Below, piece after piece: positions 8,047 through 20,785 of a DNA stretch of 21,122 bases. How positions within the stretch are numbered: the first letter of the stretch is position 1; every line of letters begins with the position of its first letter. The notes beneath the pieces were generated by a model, which had not been told where the DNA came from, made no database searches, and saw only the letters and a list, made by a program, of their open reading frames with translations. The DNA is from Vulcanimicrobiota bacterium. Lineage in GTDB: Bacteria; Vulcanimicrobiota; Vulcanimicrobiia; Vulcanimicrobiales; Vulcanimicrobiaceae. The DNA lies in assembly GCA_003135555.1 (NCBI GenBank), contig PLCF01000051.1:1-21122 (forward strand), given 5' to 3'. A program made the translations under genes and the position numbers.

Positions 8047-9411
8047 CTGCCTGATCTGCGCGGCCTGCCGGCCGTCCACCGCATCCTCGACGAACCGCGC
8101 GTTGTGCGGTTCGTCGCGCTTTTGGGCGCATCGACCGTGAAGCGCCACGTCGACGCAGCGCTCGACGCCGCCCGAGCCGAGGAGCCGACGCCGCCGGCCG
8201 GCGCCGTCGTCGAGGACGTCCTGGCGCGCGCCTCCGCGGAGGCCCGGCGCGGGCTCGGGGAGGTTCTCAACGGCACGGGCATCCTGCTCCACACCAACCT
8301 CGGCCGCGCGCCGCTGGCCCGCGAGGCGCTCGACGCGATCGGGGACGCGACCGCCGGTGCCTCCAATCTGGAGTACGATCTCGACGCCGGTTCGCGGGGC
8401 TCGCGCTACGATCGGTTGGGGGCGCTGCTGCGCGCCGCAACCGGCGCCGAGGACGGCCTCGTCGTCAACAACTGCGCGGCTGCGGTCCTGCTGGTGCTCG
8501 ATACGTTCGCGCGCGCCCCCGACGGCTCGGCGCGTGAGGTGATCGTCGCACGCAATCAGCTCGTCGAGATCGGCGGCGGGTTCCGCTTGCCGGAGGTCTT
8601 GGCACGCAGCGGGTCGCGCCTGGTCGAGGTCGGCGCAACCAACAAGGTCCGAATCGGCGACTACGAGCGCGCGCTGGGCCCGAACACCGCGCTGCTGTTG
8701 CGCGCGCACCCGTCCAATTATCGCATCGAGGGCTTCGTCTCGGAGGTGTCGGGCGCGGAGCTCGTCGCGCTCGGCCGCCGCGCCGGGCTCCCGGTGGTCG
8801 AAGATCTTGGGAGCGGCGCGCTCCTCGATCTGCGCGCCTACGGTTTGCCGCGCGAGCGCACCGTGCAGGACGCCGTGGCGGACGGCATCGACCTGATCGC
8901 TTTCTCGGGCGACAAGCTTTTGGGTGGTCCCCAGGCCGGCATCATCGTCGGCCGCACCGCGCTCGTCAAACGCCTGCGCGCCAACCCGCTCTTGCGCGCG
9001 TTACGGATCGGCGCTCCGACAATCGCCGCGCTCGCCGCGACACTGCGCCTGCACCTCGATCCCGCCGGCCGCGAGCGCATCCCGTTCTACCTAATGCTCG
9101 CGACGCCGCTCGACGAGCTGCGCCTGCGCGCCGCGGCGCTGTGTGCGCAGTTGGAGGGTCTCGACGTGCGCATCGACGACGTGGCAGGCTACGTGGGCGG
9201 TGGTGCGCTGCCGCTTGCGCCGCTGAAATCGGTTGCCGTGGCTTGGCGCCCGGCGCGCGCCGACGCAAACGCGGCCGCGGCGCGACTGCGTGGCGGCGCG
9301 CCGCCCGTGGTGGCGCGCGTCGCAGGCGACCGCGTGCTGATCGACTTGCGCGCGATCCCGTCGCAACGCGACGGGGACGTGGCGGCGGCGCTCCGGGCCG
9401 CGGCGCCCTAA
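8047..9411 (+). CDS. selA: L-seryl-tRNA(Sec) selenium transferase
   Basis: NGTGILLHTNLGRAPL, SNLEYDL..G.RG.R, VVNNCAAAV, VEIGGGFRLPEV, EDLGSG, PLP-lysine motif FSGDKLLGGPQAG. The start is uncertain (CTG 8047 inferred; GTG 8104 is the first canonical start). Confidence 0.96.
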   Translation: MPDLRGLPAVHRILDEPRVVRFVALLGASTVKRHVDAALDAARAEEPTPPAGAVVEDVLARASAEARRGLGEVLNGTGILLHTNLGRAPLAREALDAIGDATAGASNLEYDLDAGSRGSRYDRLGALLRAATGAEDGLVVNNCAAAVLLVLDTFARAPDGSAREVIVARNQLVEIGGGFRLPEVLARSGSRLVEVGATNKVRIGDYERALGPNTALLLRAHPSNYRIEGFVSEVSGAELVALGRRAGLPVVEDLGSGALLDLRAYGLPRERTVQDAVADGIDLIAFSGDKLLGGPQAGIIVGRTALVKRLRANPLLRALRIGAPTIAALAATLRLHLDPAGRERIPFYLMLATPLDELRLRAAALCAQLEGLDVRIDDVAGYVGGGALPLAPLKSVAVAWRPARADANAAAARLRGGAPPVVARVAGDRVLIDLRAIPSQRDGDVAAALRAAAP

Positions 9412-9418
9412 CTCCGAC

Positions 9419-11281
9419 GTGCACGTCGTCGGCACGGCGGGTCACGTCGATCATGGGAAATCGTCGCTGGTGCGCGCGCTGACCGGAACCGATCCCGACC
9501 GCTGGATTGAAGAGCAGCTGCGCGGGATGACGCTCGACCTCGGGTTCGCGCATTTGCGCTTCGACGACGGGGTCGAAGCCGGGATCGTCGACGTCCCCGG
9601 ACACGAGCGCTTCCTGCACAACATGCTCGCCGGCGCGGCGGGGATGGACGTGCTGCTCCTGGTCGTCGCCGCCAACGAAGGCGTCCGTCCCCAAACGCTC
9701 GAGCACCTCGCGATCGTGGACTTTCTCAACGTGCGGCGGGCGATCGTGGTCTTGACCAAGCGCGATCTCGTCGACGATGCCGCCCTGGCCGAGGTCGAGC
9801 GCGAGGTGCGTGCGGCGATCGACGGAACCGTCGCGCAGGGCGCGCCGGCGATCGCGGTCTCCACCCTGAGCGGCGACGGGATCGACGCGTTGCGCGCCAC
9901 GATCCACGCGACGCTCGCCGCGTTGCCGCCACGCCCGGCCGGCGCTCCGGTGTTTCTGCCGGTCGACCGCGTCTTCGCCTTGCCCGGCCACGGCACGATC
10001 GTTACCGGAACGCTGATGCAGGGGACGCTGCGCGTCGGTGAGACGCTGCGGCTCGAGCCGCCCGGCCGCGCCGTACGGGTGCGCGCCCTGCACGTCTTCG
10101 GATCCCCGCGCGACGCCGTCGGCGCCGGTGCCCGCGTCGCGGTGAACCTGCCCGGCGTCGAGGTCGGTGAGCTGCGGCGCGGCGCGGTGCTCGGCGACGA
10201 CACGTTCGCCCCGAATGCGGCGCTGTCGGTGCGCTTTCGCGCGCTACCCGGTGCGGAGCGAATCCTGCACCGGCGCACGCCGGTGCGGGCGTATCTCGGC
10301 GCGGCCGAGATTCTGGGCACGCTGGTGTTCGACGATGCCGCACCACCGCCGGCGGCGACACCGGCCGGGGCGACGCTGCATCTGCGCCGCGCGACGACGA
10401 CCTATCCCGGCGAGGCCTTCGTGGTGCGCTCGGTCTCACCCAAGACGCTGCTCGGCGGCGGGACCGTCGGCGCCGGTGCGGTGGCGTCGTTCGATGCGGT
10501 CGCGCCCGACGTCGAGGCGGTCGCGAGCGTGCTCGCCGCGGCCGGGCTGAGCCCGCGTACCGCCGCCGAGCTCGGCGCACGCGCGAACGTGCGCGAAGAG
10601 CGGGCCGTCGAGATTCTGGCCGAGCTCGTCGCGAGCGGCTCGGCGCGGCGGCTGCAAAAGCCGGCCGGTTACCTCGACGGCGCGGCGGCCGACGCGCTGG
10701 CCGAGCGCATCGGCGCGTCGCTGCTGCGGCGTGAATCGGAATCGGCGTGGATGCTCGGAACCACCTCTCTCGCGCTGGCGCGCGAGCTCAGCCTCGACGA
10801 AGGTTTTCTGGTGCGCTTTCTGGCCGCTGAGGCCGAGGACGGGCGGCTGGCGGCGCGGGCGGGCTATTTCGCGACCGTGAGCCATCGGCCGCGCCTCAGC
10901 GAAGAACAGCGTGCGTTCTTCGAGCGCGTGGTCGTCGCCGACGCCGCGCAACCGCTCGTCCCCGTGCCGCTCGACGACGTCGTCGGCGAGCTGCGCCGAG
11001 CCCGGATCCCGGGGATCGCGCAGGCATTCGATACGCTCCTAGCGACCGGTGCGCTGGTCAAGGTCGGGGGCGACGTGTATCGGGGCGTCCAGATCGCCGA
11101 GATTCGCAAGCGCCTCGAGGCCGCCGTGCGCAGCACCGGGCCCATCACGATGTCCCGATTCCGCGACGCGGTCGGAACCACGCGTAAGTACGCCGTGCCG
11201 CTCATGGAGTGGTTCGACGCCACCGGTGTGACGGTCCGCGACGGGGACGTGCGCGCGTTGCGGCAAAGCGGCCTGCGTTGA
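9419..11281 (+). CDS. selB: Selenocysteine-specific elongation factor
   Basis: GTAGHVDHGKS, RGMTLDLGFA, DVPGHERFLHNMLAG, TKRD and C-terminal winged helix TRKYAVPLMEWFD; follows selA. Confidence 0.96.
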   Translation: MHVVGTAGHVDHGKSSLVRALTGTDPDRWIEEQLRGMTLDLGFAHLRFDDGVEAGIVDVPGHERFLHNMLAGAAGMDVLLLVVAANEGVRPQTLEHLAIVDFLNVRRAIVVLTKRDLVDDAALAEVEREVRAAIDGTVAQGAPAIAVSTLSGDGIDALRATIHATLAALPPRPAGAPVFLPVDRVFALPGHGTIVTGTLMQGTLRVGETLRLEPPGRAVRVRALHVFGSPRDAVGAGARVAVNLPGVEVGELRRGAVLGDDTFAPNAALSVRFRALPGAERILHRRTPVRAYLGAAEILGTLVFDDAAPPPAATPAGATLHLRRATTTYPGEAFVVRSVSPKTLLGGGTVGAGAVASFDAVAPDVEAVASVLAAAGLSPRTAAELGARANVREERAVEILAELVASGSARRLQKPAGYLDGAAADALAERIGASLLRRESESAWMLGTTSLALARELSLDEGFLVRFLAAEAEDGRLAARAGYFATVSHRPRLSEEQRAFFERVVVADAAQPLVPVPLDDVVGELRRARIPGIAQAFDTLLATGALVKVGGDVYRGVQIAEIRKRLEAAVRSTGPITMSRFRDAVGTTRKYAVPLMEWFDATGVTVRDGDVRALRQSGLR

Positions 11282-14200
11282 GCGGTCTTCCCCCGCCCCA
11301 GTCCGCCGCCGCTGCGCAGGCGAGCGGCGCCTCGATTCTCGACGCCGACCTGCGCGCGTTTCTCGAAACGTTGCCGCAGATCGTCTGGCGCACGACGGCG
11401 GACGGCTTGCACGACTACTTCAACGGGTTCTGGCACGACTACAGCGGGCTCACCCCCGAAGCGTCGCTGGGCGACCGATGGACCGGCGCGATCCACGCCG
11501 ACGATGCCGTGGCCGCGACCGCAGCGTGGCGAGCGACCGTGCGCGAAGAGGCGCCCTACGATATCGAGTTTCGCCTGCGCGGCCGCGGCGGCGCGTATCG
11601 CTGGTTTCTCGCCCGCGCGACGCCGCTGCGCGACGCGAGCGGTCGCATCGTGCACTGGTACGGCACGTGCACCGACATCGATGCGCAGAAGCGCGTCGAG
11701 GTGCAGTTCCGCGCCATCGCCGAGGCGATCCCGCAGATGGTGTTCACTGCGCTCCCCGACGGCAGCATGGAGTATCTCAACGCGCACGTGTACGACTACA
11801 CCGGGATCGAACGCGATCCGGCCGCGTGGTCGTTGCGCGCGCTCGTCCACTCCGACGACTTGGCAGCGATGTTCGGCGCATGGCGGGGTTCGATCGCGAG
11901 CGGCGATCCGTATGAAGCCGAAACGCGGCTGTTGCGCGCCGACGGCGCCTATCGCTGGTTCATCGTACGCGCGAGCGCGCTGCGCGATCCTGAGACCGGC
12001 GCGCTGACGCGCTGGTTCGGCACCTGTACCGACGTCGACGACCTGCACGGCGCCGCCACGCGCGACGCGTTCTTGGCCCGCGCCGACGAGCTCTTCGGCG
12101 TCGAGCTCGACCCTGAGGCGATCGTGCGCGCCGTCGCGCGGGCCGCGGTCGAGTCGTTCGCCGACTACGTATTCTTCGATCTCGCCGCCGAGGACGGGCA
12201 GCTGCGGCGTGCCGCGGTCGACCACCGCGACCCCAGCGGCCGAGAGCGGCTCCAACGTTCGCTGGGGGAAGCAGCGCCGGCGGAGCACCCGATCCGCCCG
12301 GTCTCGACCGCGTGGCGCAGCGGCGAGAGCGTGTTGGTGCCGCGCATCGACGCGTCATGGTGGCGGCGTGCGGCGATGGACGATGCCCACTTCGAGCGGA
12401 TGCGCGGCGAAGGGCTGTCATCGCTGATCACCGTGCTCATCACATCACGCGGACGGCGCTACGGCGTGCTCTCGTTCTGCCGCGCGCACGCCTCGCAGAG
12501 CTACGGTGATTTCGAGCTGGTGACCGCCGAGGAACTGGCGCGGCGCGTCGGTGCGGCGCTCGAAAACGCGCAGCTGTACCAGGAAGCACGCGCGGCGGCC
12601 GAAGCGCACCGCACCATCGCGGAGCGCGAGGCGTTCTACGCGCGGCTCGGCGAGGAGTTGGCCGAAACGCTCTACCTGCGCGAAACGCTCGACATCGCGA
12701 CGCGCCTGCTCGTGCCGTCATTCGCGGACTGGGCGGTGGTGAACTTGATCGACCAGGACGACGCGCTTTTCCTCGCGGCGTCCCATCATCGCGATCCCAC
12801 TCTGGACGCGCGGACGCGCCGCCTGCTCGACCTGCGCTACCTCGCCGCCGAAGCGCACGGCGGCTCGCCCGCGGTCGTGCGCACGAAGCAGCCCGTGATC
12901 TACGAGCACGTCCCGCAGGGCGGTATCGGTGCAGTGACGGGACCGTACCGCGAAGCGATCGGCGCGCTCGGCGTGACGTCGGCGGCGATCGTTCCAATCG
13001 CCTTTGGCGGTGCAGTGCGTGGCACGATCGCGATCATGTACGACCGCACCTCGGAGCGCCACTACTCTCAGGCCGATCTGCCGTTCTTCGTCGAGGTCGC
13101 GCGCCGCTTGTCGCCGGCGATCGGAAACGCCGAAGCGTACGAACGCGAGCGGCGGGTCGCATGGACGTTCCAAGCCGCCGCGCTCACGATGGACCTGCCG
13201 CGCGTCGCCGGGATCTCGTTCGACGCGCTCTACGAGCCCAGCCGCAGCGAGGCGCTCATCGGCGGCGACTGGTACGATGCGTTTCGCGTCGCCGACGGCC
13301 GAATCGTGCTGACCATCGGCGACGTGGCGGGCAGCGGGCTCGACGCGGCCGCGACGATGGCGGGGATTCGCCAGAGCCTGCGCGGCGCCGCCGCGATCAA
13401 CCCCGATCCCTCGGTGATGCTCGACGCCGCCGATCGCGTGCTGCGCTGGCAGGCACCCGAACGATTCGTGACCGCCTGGGTCGGGGTGCTCGATCCGGTG
13501 TGGGCGACGCTGATGACCGCGGGGGCCGGCCATCCGCCGCCCTTGGAGCGACGCGCGGATGGAAGCGTGCGCCAACTCCCGGCCGGCGGTCTGCCGCTCG
13601 GCCTGCGCGAGCGCGGCGGCGACGTGACGCGCCAGCTCGTGCTGGCCCCGGGCAGCGCACTGCTGCTCTACACCGACGGTTTGATCGAGGCCGGTCGCGA
13701 CGTGATCGCCGGCGAGGCGGCGGTCGCGCTGGCGCTGCGTGGGGCCGACGTCGAAACGGCACCGGCACGCGCGATCCATCAGGCCGTCCTGGGCGACATC
13801 GTGGCCAGCGACGACGTGGCGCTGCTCGTCGTCGCCTTTCGCGATTCGCTGTTTGCGCTTGGTGGCGAGCGCGGTGCGCAGCGCTGGACGTTCGATGTCA
13901 ACGACCGCGCTGCGGCGACGCAGGCGCGCACCGCGATGGTCGAGGTACTGGAACGGCGCGGCGTCGCCGAGCTCGAGCGCACGATCGCCGAGCTCATCTT
14001 CGCCGAGCTGATCGGCAACGTGAAACGGTACGCCCCCGGCCCCGTGGACGTCGCGCTCGATCTCAGCGGCGAGTTCGGCGTCCTCCACGTGGTCGATTCC
14101 GGCGAAGGCTTTCAGCACAACGCGCGCTTGCCCGCCGACGCGCTCTCCGAGAACGGGCGCGGCTTGTTCATCGTCGCGACGATCGCCGAAGAGTTCGCGG

Positions 14201-14295
14201 TGACACGCGTTCCGGGCGGCGGAGCGCACGCGCGCGCCGTGCTGCCGGGCCGCCTCGGGGGAGTCCCCGAACCCGCCTACACCAGCGCGAATTAG
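11278..14295 (+). CDS. Multi-sensor SpoIIE/PP2C phosphatase with anti-sigma-kinase-like HATPase tail (PAS-PAS-GAF-GAF-SpoIIE-HATPase)
   Basis: Two PAS/PAC repeats (YRWFL.RA.P.RD..G....WYGTCTDID), two GAF repeats, IGGDWYD / IGDVAGSG / AGHPPP / LYTDGLIE / DDVALL phosphatase motifs, and ELIGN...D.GEGF...GRGLFIV. TTG 11278 overlaps the selB stop. Confidence 0.88.
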   Translation: MSGLPPPQSAAAAQASGASILDADLRAFLETLPQIVWRTTADGLHDYFNGFWHDYSGLTPEASLGDRWTGAIHADDAVAATAAWRATVREEAPYDIEFRLRGRGGAYRWFLARATPLRDASGRIVHWYGTCTDIDAQKRVEVQFRAIAEAIPQMVFTALPDGSMEYLNAHVYDYTGIERDPAAWSLRALVHSDDLAAMFGAWRGSIASGDPYEAETRLLRADGAYRWFIVRASALRDPETGALTRWFGTCTDVDDLHGAATRDAFLARADELFGVELDPEAIVRAVARAAVESFADYVFFDLAAEDGQLRRAAVDHRDPSGRERLQRSLGEAAPAEHPIRPVSTAWRSGESVLVPRIDASWWRRAAMDDAHFERMRGEGLSSLITVLITSRGRRYGVLSFCRAHASQSYGDFELVTAEELARRVGAALENAQLYQEARAAAEAHRTIAEREAFYARLGEELAETLYLRETLDIATRLLVPSFADWAVVNLIDQDDALFLAASHHRDPTLDARTRRLLDLRYLAAEAHGGSPAVVRTKQPVIYEHVPQGGIGAVTGPYREAIGALGVTSAAIVPIAFGGAVRGTIAIMYDRTSERHYSQADLPFFVEVARRLSPAIGNAEAYERERRVAWTFQAAALTMDLPRVAGISFDALYEPSRSEALIGGDWYDAFRVADGRIVLTIGDVAGSGLDAAATMAGIRQSLRGAAAINPDPSVMLDAADRVLRWQAPERFVTAWVGVLDPVWATLMTAGAGHPPPLERRADGSVRQLPAGGLPLGLRERGGDVTRQLVLAPGSALLLYTDGLIEAGRDVIAGEAAVALALRGADVETAPARAIHQAVLGDIVASDDVALLVVAFRDSLFALGGERGAQRWTFDVNDRAAATQARTAMVEVLERRGVAELERTIAELIFAELIGNVKRYAPGPVDVALDLSGEFGVLHVVDSGEGFQHNARLPADALSENGRGLFIVATIAEEFAVTRVPGGGAHARAVLPGRLGGVPEPAYTSAN

Positions 14296-15554
14296 ACGAT
14301 GGCGATGCTCTTGCGGTAGTCCGCGGCGAAGATCGACTTGGGGATCATCGCGTGGACGCCGTTTTGCACGTCGACCATCTGGGTGATGCGGAAGTCGACG
14401 CCGATCGAGGCCAGCCCGTAGGCGTCGTCCCGGCTGAGCCCGGCCTTGTCGTGCAGGAAGTCGATAGTGTTGCGCAACGCCACGCGTAACGCGTCGTTCA
14501 CCGACGGATCGAGTCCCAGCGCGATCCAGTGCGTTGCGGTTTCGGCGAACGGCCACTTCGGGGCCACGTTCTTGTGCAGGATCACCTGCATCCGGACTTC
14601 TTTCATCGCCGTCTCGATCGCGGTGAGGTTCACCTCGCCGTCGCCTTGCAGCGCGTGCGAGTCGCCGGTGAAGATCAACGCACCGGGATGGATTACCGGC
14701 ACGAACAGCGACGAGCCCGCGGTCAAGTCTTTGAGGTCGATGTTGCCGGCGTGCTTGCCGGGCGCGACCGAGCTGACCGCCTTGTCGCCCTCCGCGGCGA
14801 TGCCGATTGTTCCCTGAAACGGCTTGAGCTCGAGGCGAATGCGATCGTTGAAGGCGACGTACTGCTGCGCGGGATCGAGCTTGAAATAGTGGACGTGACC
14901 GTCGGGAAACTCGTCGGGCAATGTCCCCGTCTTGATCGTCGCGCCCGGGTTGTGGAAGTTCGCGCCGAAGCCGACTGTCTCGAGGCGCAGGAACCGGATC
15001 TGCACCGTGTCGCCGGGCATAGCGCCTTTGACCGCGATCGGTCCGATGATGCTGTGCACGCCGCGCCCCGGACTGTTCCGGCGCATGTTCGCGAGCTCGT
15101 CGGCGGGCACGCCGGGTTGAAGCTTGTTGAGGAAATGGGTCCAGGTGTTCTCGTACACGACGACGTCGCCGGAATCGACGCTGAGGATCGGCGCCTTGGC
15201 GGGATCGAAGAGGCCTTGAACGACCGTGTCGTTGTTCGACGGCACGACGTGCGTGCGCCCGAGCGCGACCGGCTTTACCGTCGACGTCCAGTCGTACGAG
15301 GAGTTACCGGCGGTCGGGGCCGCCGATGTCGTGTCGGGCAGCACCGTGTCGGCCAGCGCGAACGCAGCGGCGGCGCCGCCGATTCTCAGGGCGCCGGCGC
15401 GCGACACGCGCCAGCCTTCGTAGCGCTCCTCGACCTCGGCGCCGTCGACCGCGTCGTGCGCGCGCAGCTCGCGCCGGCGCTTCTCGTCGCTCAAGAATCC
15501 GGTCAACGCGTGGGAGAAACGCTTCCCGATCCAGTGCTCGCTGCAGCCGAACAT
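14292..15554 (-). CDS. Acetamidase/formamidase (FmdA/AmdA) family protein
   Basis: GPIAVKGAMPGD, PFQGTIG, HAGNIDLKDL..GS.LFVPV...GAL...GDSHALQGDGEV..TAIE, AYGLAS..VDFRITQMVD; ATG 15554 with GGAGGTGA RBS. Confidence 0.9.
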   Translation of the reverse strand: MFGCSEHWIGKRFSHALTGFLSDEKRRRELRAHDAVDGAEVEERYEGWRVSRAGALRIGGAAAAFALADTVLPDTTSAAPTAGNSSYDWTSTVKPVALGRTHVVPSNNDTVVQGLFDPAKAPILSVDSGDVVVYENTWTHFLNKLQPGVPADELANMRRNSPGRGVHSIIGPIAVKGAMPGDTVQIRFLRLETVGFGANFHNPGATIKTGTLPDEFPDGHVHYFKLDPAQQYVAFNDRIRLELKPFQGTIGIAAEGDKAVSSVAPGKHAGNIDLKDLTAGSSLFVPVIHPGALIFTGDSHALQGDGEVNLTAIETAMKEVRMQVILHKNVAPKWPFAETATHWIALGLDPSVNDALRVALRNTIDFLHDKAGLSRDDAYGLASIGVDFRITQMVDVQNGVHAMIPKSIFAADYRKSIAIV

Positions 15555-15634
15555 AGCTTCACCTCCGAGAGTCTGCCGTGCCGTTGCTGCTCCGACCCGG
15601 CGTTCGGCCGCTCCTTCGGCCGACCGGTACATCC

Positions 15635-16303
15635 CTAGCGCGCGGCGCTCTCGCGCAGCGTCGCCAAGATGCGATCGCGGCTTCCGGTGAGGTGCGCGCT
15701 CATGCGCTCGACGGCCAGCTCGGCCTCGCCGTGGGCGACCGCGTCGGCGATCCCCTCGTGATCGTCCCAGGTGTCGACCGGATAGTCCCCGGCTTGGAAG
15801 TACGCGTGCATCACGCGCATGATCTGCGACCACTGCGCTCCCAGGGCGGCGACGAGGTGCGCGTTGTCCGACGCCGCGGCGATGTCGGCGTGAAAGTCGC
15901 GGTCGAGCCGGAACAGCGCCGTCAGGTTCCGCGCCGCGATCGCTTGGCGCGCCTGCGCGTGGCGCTGCTTCGTCGCGCCTCGCAGGTCCGCAAAGCGCTC
16001 CGCCGCGCGCCGGAGCGCAAGCGATTCGAGTGCGAGCCTGAGCTCGTAGAGGTCGACGATGTCCTTGGGCGCCAGCGGCCGCACGATCGCGCCCCGGTTG
16101 GGGGTGATCACGACCAGCCCCTCACCTTCGAGCCGGCGCAGCGCCTCGCGCAGCGGTATGCGGCTCATCCCGAAGGCCTCGGCCAGCTCTTCCTGGACCA
16201 GGCGGGTGCCCGGAGCGTAGCGCCCGGTCAAGATCGCCTCGCGCACCGCGTCGACGAGGCCTTCCGAGCGCGGCTCCAAGCCCCGTGCGAGGTTCAATGC
16301 CAT
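15635..16303 (-). CDS. GntR family (FadR/FCD subfamily) transcriptional regulator
   Basis: REAILTG.YAPGTRL....LAEAFGMSRIPLREALRRLEGEGLV...PNRGA.V HTH, plus an FCD domain (D..FH..I...S.N..L...H..I..A). Confidence 0.93.
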   Translation of the reverse strand: MALNLARGLEPRSEGLVDAVREAILTGRYAPGTRLVQEELAEAFGMSRIPLREALRRLEGEGLVVITPNRGAIVRPLAPKDIVDLYELRLALESLALRRAAERFADLRGATKQRHAQARQAIAARNLTALFRLDRDFHADIAAASDNAHLVAALGAQWSQIMRVMHAYFQAGDYPVDTWDDHEGIADAVAHGEAELAVERMSAHLTGSRDRILATLRESAAR

Positions 16304-16306
16304 ACG

Positions 16307-16316
16307 ATTGTATACA
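16307..16316. promoter_or_regulatory. Putative GntR operator 1 (ATTGTATACA) next to the gntR start
   Basis: TGTATACA palindrome at 16309-16316; shares ATTGTATACA with site 2. Confidence 0.7.
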
Positions 16317-16330
16317 CCCGACAGGAGGGG

Positions 16331-16362
16331 TTGACCTCCCCCACCGTAAAATTGTATACAAT
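16331..16362 (+). promoter_or_regulatory. Putative sigma70-type promoter of the mutase operon
   Basis: TTGACC at 16331-16336, with TATACA (16355) or TACAAT (16357) downstream (spacer 18 or 20 bp); RBS GGAGGT at 16370-16375. Confidence 0.5.
16351..16362. promoter_or_regulatory. Putative GntR operator 2 (perfect palindrome ATTGTATACAAT)
   Basis: 12-bp perfect AT-rich palindrome in GC-rich DNA, overlapping the -10 region; TGT-N-ACA is typical of GntR-family operators. Confidence 0.75.
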
Positions 16363-16385
16363 CTAGACCGGAGGTAGCCCGAGCC

Positions 16386-18062
16386 GTGCAGACGACCGAG
16401 AAGACCATCGCCGACGAGCAGCGCGAGTGGGAGCAACTGACGCTGCTGCCCTTTACCGCACGCCGCCCCGAATCGCGTGAGGCGTTCCGCACCCAAGGCG
16501 GGGCAGTGCTCGAACGGGTCTACACGCCCGCCCACGTCGCGGACATCGACTTCAGCCGCGACATCGGCTTCCCGGGCCAGTTCCCGTACACGCGTGGGCC
16601 CTACCCCACGATGTACCGGGCGCAGCCGTGGACGATGCGCCAGATCGCCGGCTTCGGCACCGCCGACGACACGAACGCGCGCTTCCGGTTCCTCATCGCG
16701 CAGGGTCAGACCGGAATCTCGACCGACTTCGACATGCCGACGCTCATGGGCTACGACTCCGACGACGTGCGCAGCGAGGGCGAGGTCGGGCGCGAGGGCG
16801 TCGCGATCGACAGCGTCGACGACATGCTCGATCTCTACGCTGGGATCGACCTCGAGCAGATCAGCGTCTCGATGACGATCAACCCGTCGGCCTGGATCCT
16901 ACTCGCCATGTACCTCGTGGTCGCCGAAGAGCGCGGCTTCGACCGCACCAAGCTCTCGGGGACGATCCAGAACGACATCATCAAAGAGTACGTCGCGCAG
17001 AAGGAGTGGGTCTATCCGCCGCGACCGGCGATGCGCATCGTGCGCGACACCATCACCTATTCGGCGCAGCACCTGCCGCGCTACAACCCCGTCAACGTCA
17101 GCGGCTACCACACGCGCGAAGCGGGGAGCACGGCGATCCAGGAGGTCGCCTTCACCCTGGCGGCTGGGATCGCATACGTCGAAGAGGTCGTGAAGGCCGG
17201 GATCGACGTCGACGACTTCGCGCCGCGCCTGTCGTTCTTTTTCGTGTCACAGATCGACTTCTTGGAAGAGGTCGCCAAGTTCCGGGCCGCGCGCCGCGTC
17301 TGGGCGCGCGTCATGAAGGAGCGCTTCGGCGCGCGCAAGCCCGAATCGATGCGGCTGCGTTTCCACTGTCAGACCGCCGGCGTGTCGTGCACCGCACGCG
17401 AGCCGCTCAACAACATCGCCCGCACTGCGATCGAAGCGCTGGCCGCCGTTTGCGGGGGCGCGCAGTCGCTGCACACCAACGGCTACGACGAAGCCCTCTC
17501 GATTCCCAGCGAGCCGGCGATGAAGATCGCGCTGCGCACCCAACAGATCATCGCCGAAGAAGTCGGGATCGGCGGCACGATCGATCCGCTGGCCGGCTCC
17601 TACGCGCTCGAACGGCTCACCGCCGACATCGAGAAGGGCTGCTTCGACTACTTCGCTGAGGTCGACAAGCGCGGCGGCGTCGTGAAATGCCTCGAGGACA
17701 ACTACTTCCAGATGGAGTTGGCCGACGCGGCGTACGACCTGCACCGCCGCAAGGAGGCCGGCGAACGGCACATCGTCAGCGTGACGAAGTACCGCGATGA
17801 CAGCGCCAACCCGGTGGTCGAGCTGCACCACGCCGACGAGGGCGCGGCGGACCGGCAGCTGGCGCGGCTGCGCAAGACCAAGGCGGCGCGCGACGCGAAC
17901 GCCGTGAGCAGGGCCCTCGACGAGATCGTGCGGGTCGCGAAGACCGACGAGAACCTCATGCCGGCGACGATCGCCGCCGTGAAGGCGCGCGCGACCGGCG
18001 GCGAGATCGTCAACGCGCTGCGTCCCGTATTCGGGACGTACGTCGAGACGCCGGTCTTTTGA
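16386..18062 (+). CDS. hcmA: B12-dependent acyl-CoA mutase large subunit, 2-hydroxyisobutyryl-CoA mutase type
   Basis: [22 protein letters not shown] (Ile87 where MCM has Tyr89), [17 protein letters not shown] (Asp114), [14 protein letters not shown] (Gln205 where MCM has Arg207), SGYH.REAG, QSLHTN.YDEAL; no B12 domain in this polypeptide. Confidence 0.88.
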
Positions 18063-18982
18063 TCGCCCGCCGCGTGCACCGCGATCTGGCGCGGGCGATC
18101 ACGAGCGTCGAGAACGGCATCGCGGACTACCAGGTCACGGCGGCGCGGCTCGCCGCTCAAGGGCACCGCCGCGAGGGCGCGGGCCACGCCGCCATCATCG
18201 GCGTGACCGGTCCGCCCGGCGCCGGCAAGTCGACGCTGGTCGACCGGCTGATCGAGGGCTTCCGTGCGAACGGTGAAACCGTCGCGGTGATCGCCGTCGA
18301 TCCGTCGTCGCCGTTCACGCACGGTGCGGTACTGGGCGATCGGGTGCGCATGCAGCGGCACGCCGGCGACGCCGGCGTCTTCATCCGCAGCATGGCCTCG
18401 CGCAGCGCCGGCGGCGGGCTCGCGCCCGCGACTCGCGACGCGGTGCGGCTGGCCGATGCGGCGGGCTTCGACGTCGTGGTCGTCGAGACGGTCGGCGTCG
18501 GCCAAGTCGAGCTCGAGATCGTCGCCGTCGCCGACGTGATCGTGGTCGTCACCGTCCCCGCGCTGGGCGACAGCGTTCAGACGATCAAGGCCGGTTTGAC
18601 CGAGATTGCCGACATCTTCGTGGTCAACATGGCCGATCGGCCCGGCGCGAACGCGACCGCGGTCGACCTCAAGCACATGGTCCGCGAAGGCAAGCGCGAG
18701 ATTCCCGTGCTGCAGACCATCGCGCGCGACGGCACCGGCGTATCCGAATTGTTCGCGGCGCTCGGGGCGCGGCGGGGCGCCGAAGACTCGAACGCGGTTC
18801 GCGCGGTCCGCTTCGAGCTGGTGCGCCGCGCGCGCGACGAGGCGGTGCGCCACGCGCTGGCCGCGCTCGATTCACCCGATGCCGCGGCGATCCTCGAGCG
18901 GCTGCGAGCCCACGAACTCACGCGCAACGACGCGATCGATCTCTTGCTCCCCATGCTCGGAGGACCCGTTCATGCCCATTAA
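18059..18982 (+). CDS. meaB: MeaB/MeaH (ArgK) family GTPase chaperone of the mutase
   Basis: [66 protein letters not shown] overlaps the hcmA stop. Confidence 0.93.
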
Positions 18983-19403
18983 GGTACTCGTCGCCAAGCC
19001 CGGACTCGACGGCCACGACCGCGGTGCGAAGATCGTCGCGCGGGCCTTGCGCGACGCGGGGATGGAAGTGGTCTACACCGGCCTGCACCAGACGCCCGAG
19101 ATGATCGTCACCGCAGCGGTGCAAGAAGACGTCGACGTGGTCGGCGTGAGCATTCTCTCCGGCGCGCACATGACGATCTTTCCAAAGATCATGGCGCTGC
19201 TCAAGGAGCACGACGTCGACGACATCGCGGTCGTCGGCGGCGGCGTGATCCAAGAGGCCGACATCCCCAAGCTCAAGGCGCTGGGCGTACGCGAGATCTT
19301 CAACGCGGAGGCGACGACGCAAGAGCTGATCGACGGCATCGAGCGGATCGTCGGCGAGACCGGCCGGGATCGCTCGCGGCGCGAAGCCGGCGCGGCGCGG
19401 TGA
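18972..19403 (+). CDS. hcmB: Cobalamin-binding small subunit of the mutase
   Basis: [18 protein letters not shown] (DxHxxG), [17 protein letters not shown] 18972 with GGAGG RBS. Confidence 0.9.
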
Positions 19404-20785
19404 TCGACGCCGCGCCCGTCGCGTGGCCGCTCGCCTACGACCGGGCGTACCGGCCGCCGAGCGACGCGCCGTACTGGGACGCCGCGCTCGAGACGATCTC
19501 GGAGGACGAGCGCGCGAGCGTCATCCTCGGCAAGATCGGGCGCCTGATGGCCTGGGCGTACGAGCGCGCGCCATTCTACCGCACGCGCTGGCAGGCTGCC
19601 GGCCTCGAACCGGGTGACGTGAAATCGCTCGAGGACTTCGCGCGCGTTCCGACGATCGCCAAAGCCGACCTGCGCGCCGATCAGGCCGCGCATCCGCCGT
19701 TCGGGTCGTATTTGTGCATCGAGCCGGCTGAGATCGTCCGCATCCACGGAACCTCGGGGACGAGCGGCCGGCCGACGGCGTTCGCCTGGAGCCGCGACGA
19801 CTACGACCGCATCGCGGAGTCGCACGCGCGCATCATGTGGAGCTTCGGCCTGCGGCCCAGCGACACGGTGTTCGTCGGCTCGATCTTCTCACTCTACGTC
19901 GGCTCGTGGGGCGCGCTGGCCGGGATCGAACGGCTCGGCGCCGCGGCGTTCCCGTTCGGCGCCGGCGTCCCGGGGATGACGCTGCAAGCGGTTTCGTGGA
20001 TGGCGCAGATGAAGCCGACCGCGTTTTACGGGACGCCCTCGTACGCGTTGCGGATCGCCGAGACGGCGCGCGCCGAAGGGATCGACCCGCGCGACTTCGG
20101 CCTGCGCATCATGTTCTTCTCCGGCGAGCCCGGTGCGGGGATCCCGGCGACGAAGCGTCTGATCGAAACGACGTTCGGCGCGCGTTGCATCGACAGCGGC
20201 AGCATGGGCGAGGTCACCCCCTGGATGAACCTGTGCGAGTGCGAGCACCGTACCGGGATGCACCTCTGGCAAGACATCGTCTACACGGAGCTGCTCGATC
20301 CCGCGACGATGCGTCCGCTGCCGTACGGCGCGACCGGGACGCCGGTCTACACGCAGCTCGTCCGGCGCGGGCAGCCGATGATCCGGCTCGTCTCGGGCGA
20401 TCGGGCGGAGTGGACGAACGATCCGTGTCCGTGCGGGCGCACCTATCCGCGCTTCGGGCGCGGGATCATCGGGCGCATCGACGACATGCTCGTCGTGCGC
20501 GGCGAGAACATCTACCCGTCGGCGATCGAGGACGTGCTGCGCGAATTTGCCGAGCTGGGGACGGAGTTCGAGATCGTCGTCTCGCGTCCCAAAGCGCTCG
20601 ACGTCCTCACGATCTGCGCGGAGCTCGCCGGGCCGTGCAACGAAAACGAGCTGCGCTACCGCCTGGGCGCGCAGCTCAAGCGTCAGCTCGGCATCCGCGC
20701 TGAGATCGCGTTCGTCCCCAGCGGCGCGCTCGCACGCACCGATCTGAAATCCCGGCGGGTGCGCGACGAACGGTCTACGAGCTAG
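19400..20785 (+). CDS. hcl: Phenylacetate-CoA ligase family enzyme, probable 2-hydroxyisobutyrate-CoA ligase
   Basis: [39 protein letters not shown]. The segments W...YD..Y.PP....YW, HPPFG.Y.C, AHARIMW-like and [15 protein letters not shown]...AFPFGAG resemble Aquincola HCL as recalled; GTG overlaps the hcmB stop. Confidence 0.8.

What the first reader, a model, noticed from the sequence alone, without database searches (positions are those of the whole stretch)
14292..20785. Amidase plus GntR divergently linked to the hcm operon: candidate amide-fed entry route to 2-HIBA
Seen: gntR and an acetamidase/formamidase lie on the minus strand 80 bp apart, divergent from hcmA across an 82-bp spacer. 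Known: FmdA/AmdA enzymes hydrolyse short aliphatic amides, and acetone cyanohydrin (from plant linamarin) can give 2-hydroxyisobutyramide and then 2-HIBA. Inference: the locus may use 2-hydroxyisobutyramide or another 2-hydroxyisobutyryl amide as N and C source, which would point to a natural source of 2-HIBA. I do not recall this gene combination being described. The adjacency could be coincidental.
Basis: inference. Interest (0 to 1): 0.7.

Follow-up and report, generated by a model that had tools for sequence, protein, structure and literature searches.

The report
Optional amidase beside 2-hydroxyisobutyrate operon
A soil bacterium carries the known vitamin-B12 operon for breaking down 2-hydroxyisobutyrate, and an amide-splitting enzyme sits on its regulator's transcript in several relatives, but most copies of each occur without the other, so the amidase looks like an optional passenger and not a dedicated entry route.

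Summary
GntR beside hcm is published. The amidase link is conserved but optional: beside hcm in 8 of 25 hcm-bearing genomes of the genus, often stop-start coupled to gntR; in 3 others it holds the same chromosomal site without hcm; 0 of 66 hcm-type loci outside the phylum have it. No nitrile enzyme lies in the locus; a nitrile hydratase is unlinked. The window has lost a DXR-II-like oxidoreductase that stands at this site in 14 of the 25 hcm genomes. In 12 other genomes an Fe/2-oxoglutarate dioxygenase replaces hcm, never co-occurring with it, under a related GntR where one is present. Best reading (0.5): an old resident amide hydrolase captured into the gntR transcript. Cyanohydrin route: 0.15. 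Boldest reading (0.15): a regulon with a third, B12-free route for 2-HIBA or a close analogue. The scan noted an hcm operon with an amidase once before on other DNA (e1-6743704, untested). New variant of a known kind; interest 0.4.

The parts
14292..15554 (-). FmdA/AmdA-family amidase, 420 aa; decayed Tat-like N-terminus (S51-R52-A53 instead of SRR); strong ribosome-binding site GGAGGT upstream
15555..15634 (-). 80-bp gap between gntR and amidase; no terminator-like site; place where relatives carry a DXR-II-like oxidoreductase and other genes
15635..16303 (-). GntR regulator with FCD domain, 222 aa
16308..16317 (.). operator-like palindrome 1 (TTGTATACAC), 4 bp before the gntR start
16351..16362 (.). 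operator-like palindrome 2 (ATTGTATACAAT), 23 bp before hcmA; holds a -10-like TACAAT on both strands
16386..18062 (+). hcmA, 2-hydroxyisobutyryl-CoA mutase large subunit (Ile87, Asp114)
18059..18982 (+). meaB/meaH G-protein chaperone
18972..19403 (+). hcmB, B12-binding small subunit
19400..20785 (+). hcl, 2-HIBA-CoA ligase (Tyr166, Ser241)

Best explanation
The right half is the known 2-HIBA mutase route: Hcl activates 2-HIBA to its CoA ester, B12-dependent HcmAB with MeaB isomerises it to 3-hydroxybutyryl-CoA (shown by homology and motif identity). GntR binds the two TTGTATACA palindromes and represses both divergent promoters until an acid effector is present (inferred from co-variation of box and gene). 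The amidase is an intact, probably cytoplasmic metal-dependent hydrolase of small amides that has long sat at this chromosomal site (between selB and clpB), usually behind a DXR-II-like oxidoreductase. It is the last gene of the leftward gntR transcript and so is probably co-induced with hcm (inferred), but it is an optional passenger: it would release ammonia or amine from a range of small amides and feed hcm only incidentally. The window's compact gntR-amidase order arose by loss of the oxidoreductase (inferred).
For: Only 8 of 25 hcm genomes of the genus have the amidase, against 3 of 18 without hcm (n = 43, p 0.31). The same site holds the amidase without gntR-hcm in G018, G035, G039 and in other genera (G421, G587). 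Outside the genus, 21 genomes have the amidase and 25 have hcmA, 3 have both. 6 of 29 metagenome amidase loci show hcmA; the rest lie beside unrelated genes or on short contigs. 0 of 66 hcm-type loci of other phyla have an FmdA gene. The slot behind the oxidoreductase is filled variously by DJ-1, 3-hydroxyacyl-CoA dehydrogenase or acyltransferase genes. The amidase tree broadly follows the trees of its neighbours, as inheritance with repeated loss would give.
Against: Where the oxidoreductase was lost the amidase was several times kept and coupled to gntR (stop-start overlap in G031, L186, L193, G573), and in L188 and L190 it stays next to hcmA although gntR is gone. All 11 site-resident amidases of the genus are in genomes with hcm or its dioxygenase replacement, 0 of 6 in genomes with neither (p 0.31). 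The twin-arginine motif is missing in 120 of 120 closest homologues, which fits a move to the cytoplasm. Amidases that cleave the trifluoro analogue of 2-hydroxyisobutyramide exist (PMC11732141, passages). Genomes are 53-99% complete and related, so the counts are weak.
Confidence: 0.5

Rival explanations
1. Functional regulon for a small acid with a fully substituted alpha carbon (2-HIBA or a close analogue such as 2-aminoisobutyrate or 2-methylglycerate). HcmAB/Hcl, the thiamine lyase and an Fe/2-oxoglutarate dioxygenase plus DXR-II-like oxidoreductase are alternative routes; the amidase frees the acid from a natural amide that need not come from a nitrile (primary amide, N-acyl form, peptide fragment, hydroxyisobutyryl-lysine).
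For: hcm (25) and the dioxygenase (12) never co-occur among 43 genus genomes; the dioxygenase stands directly before the oxidoreductase in 11 of the 12 and falls in three places on the selB tree. Regulators of hcm loci, of dioxygenase loci and of alphaproteobacterial GntR-dioxygenase loci form one clade (support 0.96) with shared FCD residues; G004 has the dioxygenase-type GntR with hcm. The same box precedes both types. A 2-hydroxyacyl-CoA lyase over the NF058623 cut-off sits in some hcm operons.
Against: No substrate was tested. The dioxygenase's solved relatives are entries named phytanoyl-CoA dioxygenase, leucine hydroxylase and ectoine hydroxylase. The exclusion may reflect few replacement events at one insertion site; the selB backbone is poorly resolved. 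0 of 20 alphaproteobacterial dioxygenase loci have hcm or the amidase. Six dioxygenase loci have neither gntR nor box.
Confidence: 0.27
2. One reading: acetone cyanohydrin (from linamarin) is hydrated by a nitrile hydratase to 2-hydroxyisobutyramide, which the amidase turns into 2-HIBA and ammonia for hcm.
For: The chemistry is described as a biotechnological route (PMC2847961, passages). Nitrile-hydratase-like alpha genes occur in 27 of 44 genus genomes, including 9 of 11 with the site-resident amidase; the five such loci read show no FmdA-type or other evident amidase neighbour (by reading of the called genes).
Against: The hydratase is never in the locus; association with the amidase p 0.15, with hcm p 0.06 in the negative direction. 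G006 and G028 (96% complete) have amidase and hcm but no hydratase match. The three CN-hydrolases of the genome are N-carbamoylputrescine-amidase-like, unassigned and Lnt. PMC2847961 stresses the instability of the cyanohydrin.
Confidence: 0.15
3. Pure neighbourhood: the amidase has its own promoter and is not even co-induced with gntR or hcm.
For: In the window it has an 80-bp gap and its own ribosome-binding site; in G421 and G522 it points away from the oxidoreductase.
Against: Gaps of 7-16 bp or overlaps with the upstream gene in G034, G020, G028, G031, G018, G035, G039; no terminator or promoter consensus in 14200-16500.
Confidence: 0.08

Closest known systems
hcmAB-meaH-hcl cluster with GntR of Aquincola tertiaricarbonis L108 / Methylibium petroleiphilum PM1 (PDB 4R3U, 6HDW; PMC7176365)
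   Same: All four genes, the mutase and ligase motifs, and a GntR upstream on the opposite strand.
   Different: Gene order hcmA-meaB-hcmB-hcl; the regulator's transcript continues into an amidase (and, in relatives, a DXR-II-like oxidoreductase); host phylum Vulcanimicrobiota by the titles of the closest records.
Lyase-HCL cluster of Actinomycetospora chiangmaiensis (PDB 7PT1; PMC7176365)
   Same: Seven relatives carry an orthologous lyase near hcm.
   Different: The window has no lyase in the locus; relatives have mutase and lyase together.
FmdA/AmdA family: 3B9T, 2F4L, 2II1, 5UBU, 2WKN
   Same: Fold and conserved GNxD, GDSH, GDGE motifs.
   Different: About 22-30% identity; far below the formamidase FmdA equivalog cut-off (71 of 500 bits); own subfamily with an MFGC N-terminal extension; no characterised close member.
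DXR-II-like oxidoreductases DLO1/DLO2 (PDB 3UPL; PMC3847144)
   Same: The gene missing from the window but present in relatives is PF21135 and matches 3UPL/3UPY.
   Different: Function unknown in print; the passages searched give no link to a mutase or dioxygenase.

Membership tests
2-hydroxyisobutyryl-CoA mutase (HcmAB) operon | Large subunit closest to HcmA, with Ile and Asp at the two specificity positions (I90/D117 numbering recalled) | tested here: met
   Ile87, Asp114; the genome's other two mutases have Phe/Ala and Tyr/Ala
2-hydroxyisobutyryl-CoA mutase (HcmAB) operon | Separate B12-binding subunit, MeaB/MeaH chaperone and HCL ligase in one operon | tested here: met
2-hydroxyisobutyryl-CoA mutase (HcmAB) operon | GntR upstream on either strand | tested here: met
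2-hydroxyisobutyryl-CoA mutase (HcmAB) operon | Enzyme activity on 2-HIBA and its CoA ester | not testable with these tools
   needs assay
FmdA/AmdA amidase family (PF03069) | Pfam score over the gathering cut-off and family fold | tested here: met
   109.6 bits against 27; all significant fold hits are family members
FmdA/AmdA amidase family (PF03069) | Conserved metal-site residues (their role recalled) | tested here: met
   N271, D273, D298, H300, E307, E314 invariant in 31 of 31 aligned sequences
Formamidase FmdA equivalog (NF045496) | Score over 500 bits | tested here: not met
   71 bits
Tat-exported amidase | S/T-R-R-x-F/L-L motif | tested here: not met
   S-R-A-G-A-L in the window; 0 of 120 closest homologues match; distant paralogues keep SRRELL
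Nitrile hydratase-amidase cluster | Nitrile hydratase genes next to the amidase | tested here: not met
   hydratase-like locus on contig C96, not C38; unlinked in relatives
Dedicated hcm feeder enzyme | Co-conservation with hcm | tested here: inconclusive
   8 of 25 in the genus, 1 adjacent case in another genus, 0 of 66 outside the phylum
Dedicated hcm feeder enzyme | Co-transcription and co-induction | not testable with these tools
   gene overlaps suggest it; no usable RNA data

The most novel reading that the evidence does not exclude
The site is one GntR/TTGTATACAA regulon for 2-HIBA or a close natural analogue in soil Vulcanimicrobiota. An Fe/2-oxoglutarate dioxygenase hydroxylates a methyl group (2-HIBA to 2-methylglycerate, or 2-aminoisobutyrate to alpha-methylserine) and the DXR-II-like enzyme oxidises or rearranges the product: a third, B12- and CoA-free route that replaces the mutase in 12 genomes and is common in Alphaproteobacteria. 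The amidase feeds either route from an amide. Its substrate would name the long-sought natural source of the mutase's substrate.
Probability: 0.15. Interest if true: 0.75.

Novelty: new variant of a known kind. Interest (0 to 1): 0.4.

Why it matters
PMC7176365 states that many hcm-bearing bacteria come from pristine habitats and that a natural source of 2-HIBA or a related acid is not yet identified. Accessory genes under the same regulator are the cheapest handle on that question. This locus gives three testable enzymes (amidase, DXR-II-like oxidoreductase, dioxygenase) and a defined operator. If the amidase is only a passenger, the finding reduces to a new host phylum for a known operon.

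Tried and rejected
RNA evidence: no RNA holder listed; contigs laid at 80% likeness were short pieces of other organisms and bridged nothing. Promoter and terminator scan of 14200-16500: 0 and 0; the hairpin in the 80-bp gap is not better than shuffles (z 0.0). Genome-wide enrichment of TGTATACA: none (3 seen, 3.1 expected); the box rests on position and conservation. Remains of the oxidoreductase in the gap or genome: none found (genome 84% complete). I first read the broken nitrile hydratase on C96 as a pseudogene; about a dozen clustered gaps, mostly one-base insertions in this genome's copy, look more like local sequencing error, so it is left open. The structure model (pLDDT 70) confirmed the family and gave no substrate. 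Careful selB tree did not finish; the quick tree has 11 of 28 inner branches open. Paper searches without a relevant hit: mutase plus 2-hydroxyisobutyramide: 0; no listed paper holds both 2-hydroxyisobutyr- and the phylum names; 15 of 137 listed. Yaneva 2012, Kurteva-Yaneva 2015, Weichler 2015 and Sonke 2005 were not held, so their cluster figures and supplements may show an amidase that I could not see. Look-alike earlier findings by place: none.
Full report
Observation. The window is the whole of contig C38 of an 84% complete genome. The closest hcmA records are titled Vulcanimicrobiota / Ca. Eremiobacteraeota / Ca. Elarobacter. Pfam gives FmdA_AmdA, GntR+FCD, mutase, MeaB, B12-binding and AMP-binding. 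The mutase is HcmA-like (4R3U, E 2.5e-220; Ile87 and Asp114 identical in the alignment), the ligase HCL-like (6HDW). The residue numbers I90/D117 and Y164/S239 and their roles are recalled, since the papers were not held.

Two palindromes, TTGTATACAC (16308) and ATTGTATACAAT (16351), lie in the 82 bp; the 8-mer core is expected 7e-5 times per 82 bp. At least one box is present in 21 of 21 other genus hcm loci that have a GntR. It is absent in G042 (no gntR) and in 6 of 6 dioxygenase loci without gntR, but kept in G025, which lacks gntR. I read it as the GntR operator (inference; no paper found). A GntR upstream of hcm is 'usually present' according to PMC7176365 (passages and parts 1 and 3 of 6 read), so that part is known.

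Conservation of the amidase link. Among 81 relatives, 29 matched hcmA and 13 the amidase. With two partial genes at contig ends (G031, G024), 25 of 44 genus genomes have hcm. The amidase lies within 4 kb of hcmA in 8 (G000, G034, G037, G010, G006, G028, G020, G031). In G018, G035 and G039 it holds the same site without hcm; in G007 a distant paralogue and in G023 a deleted copy lie elsewhere. On 43 genomes (G032, unpublished, left out) the table is 8/17/3/15, p 0.31; kin are not independent and many genomes are incomplete. In a phylum sample of 401, 33 have the amidase and 43 hcmA; outside the genus the numbers are 21 and 25, with 3 holding both: adjacent in G573, 7.3 kb apart with clpB between in G522, on separate contigs in G421. 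One genus has the paralogue in 13 of 18 genomes and hcmA in 0 of 18. Of 29 metagenome loci, 6 show hcmA (at least one duplicates a genome already counted) and one more shows gntR; many contigs are short. Of the 80 best hcmA loci of genome contigs, 66 distinct ones are from outside the phylum; none has an FmdA gene by tblastn or by a profile of 120 homologues, and four amidase-signature queries found nothing. About 18 of the 66 are a Val-type mutase without hcl, and 80 of 586 candidates were kept, so this is a sample.

Co-transcription. The gntR stop overlaps the amidase start in G031, L186 and L193 (TGATG) and in G573; gaps to the upstream gene are 7-16 bp or overlaps in G034, G020, G028, G018, G035, G039. 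The window's gap has no terminator-like site. The amidase is therefore probably the last gene of the transcript that starts at the box (inference). It keeps the family's conserved motifs and fold and has lost the twin-arginine motif that distant paralogues keep, so it is likely active and cytoplasmic.

The wider site. Between gntR and the amidase most relatives carry a DXR-II-like oxidoreductase (PF21135; 3UPL), found in 28 of 44 genus genomes and 14 of 15 of good quality, not in the window's genome; it flanks the hcm locus in 14 of 25. PMC3847144 (passages) calls such enzymes uncharacterised. A PhyH-family dioxygenase is in 13 of 44 genomes (12 of 43 without G032), none of which has an hcmA match; it stands directly before the oxidoreductase in 11. 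It appears in three places on a weakly resolved selB tree. GntR-dioxygenase-oxidoreductase also occurs in Alphaproteobacteria: of 20 loci read, 9 have the GntR and 7 the oxidoreductase within about 8 kb, 0 hcm, 0 amidase. These GntRs, the dioxygenase-type GntR2 and the hcm-type GntR form one clade (0.96) apart from the genome's other GntRs, and G004 pairs GntR2 with hcm. Seven hcm loci also hold a thiamine lyase; the one tested passes the 2-hydroxyacyl-CoA lyase cut-off. Against a tidy story: the dioxygenase's solved relatives include leucine and ectoine hydroxylases, and plasmid homologues of the oxidoreductase lie mostly in sugar-catabolic clusters (3 of 4 annotated regions).

The cyanohydrin route. 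PMC2847961 (passages) describes nitrile hydratase plus amidase giving 2-HIBA and notes the instability of the cyanohydrin. The genome has a hydratase-like locus on C96, broken by about a dozen small gaps that may be sequencing error. Such genes are in 27 of 44 genus genomes, never at this site; they do not track amidase (p 0.15) or hcm (p 0.06, negative). No clear nitrilase was found. Amidases acting on the trifluoro analogue of 2-hydroxyisobutyramide exist (PMC11732141, passages); that some belong to FmdA/AmdA is recalled, not seen. The route is chemically possible but has no genomic support specific to it.

Verdict. Shown: a canonical hcm operon, an intact FmdA-type gene, and a conserved but optional adjacency limited to part of one phylum. 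Inferred: operator, co-transcription, cytoplasmic location, loss of the oxidoreductase. Unknown: the amide. Passenger 0.5, broader regulon with amide feeding 0.27, cyanohydrin route 0.15, no co-regulation 0.08. I found no paper joining hcm and an amidase, but the key primary papers were not readable. One earlier scan note reports an hcm operon with an amidase and a CoA-transferase in another genome; I could not test it, and it slightly raises the amide-feeding readings. New variant of a known kind; interest 0.4.

Noticed in passing
L134, L137-L154 (Rhizobiales and relatives), e.g. L146:5152-9644: HcmA-like mutases with Val at the Ile position and no hcl; in 16 of 18 distinct Val-type loci a class III aminotransferase gene precedes hcmB-meaB-hcmA, mostly followed by crotonase-like and ligase-like genes. 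The one tested matches 2,2-dialkylglycine decarboxylase (1D7R, E 5.5e-202). Suggests a mutase route for 2-aminoisobutyrate or isovaline; no paper found. Possibly more interesting than the finding itself.
   Followed up: partly
L049, L050, L051, L205, L206, L208, L210, L211, L213, L215; L204, L250-L255: Uncharacterised GntR / PhyH dioxygenase / DXR-II-like oxidoreductase module, mutually exclusive with hcm in the genus; more than 7,000 protein clusters match the dioxygenase at E 1e-90.
   Followed up: partly
L046:13845-17142, L047, L048, L068, L066, L073, L074: Mutase and 2-hydroxyacyl-CoA lyase in one cluster; in four of them with a second type of HCL (about 53% identical to the window's).
   Followed up: partly
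G000:C96:16900-18030; L218, L219, L221, L222: Nitrile-hydratase-like locus whose beta subunit is split into two genes of about 90 aa; alpha scores just under the TIGR01323 cut-off. The own copy is frameshifted many times.
   Followed up: partly
L266:6340-8879: Two tandem amidase copies behind gntR in G573, the second broken.
   Followed up: no
L263:15215-19742, L264, L271-L274: A second hcm type (about 58% identical, order hcmB-hcl-meaB-hcmA) in other genera of the family, probably acquired separately.
   Followed up: no
window 8104-11281: selA and selB lie next to this site throughout the genus; PMC7176365 ties 2-HIBA lyase growth to selenium-dependent formate dehydrogenases. May be plain synteny.
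   Followed up: no
window 11209-14295: 1028-aa PAS-GAF-SpoIIE-HATPase sensor whose stop overlaps the amidase stop; present at this site in many relatives.
   Followed up: no
L178, L179, L183: Close amidase homologues at the end of a cluster that reads like crotonase, feruloyl-CoA-synthetase-like ligase and short-chain dehydrogenase (labels from my reading, not scanned).
   Followed up: no
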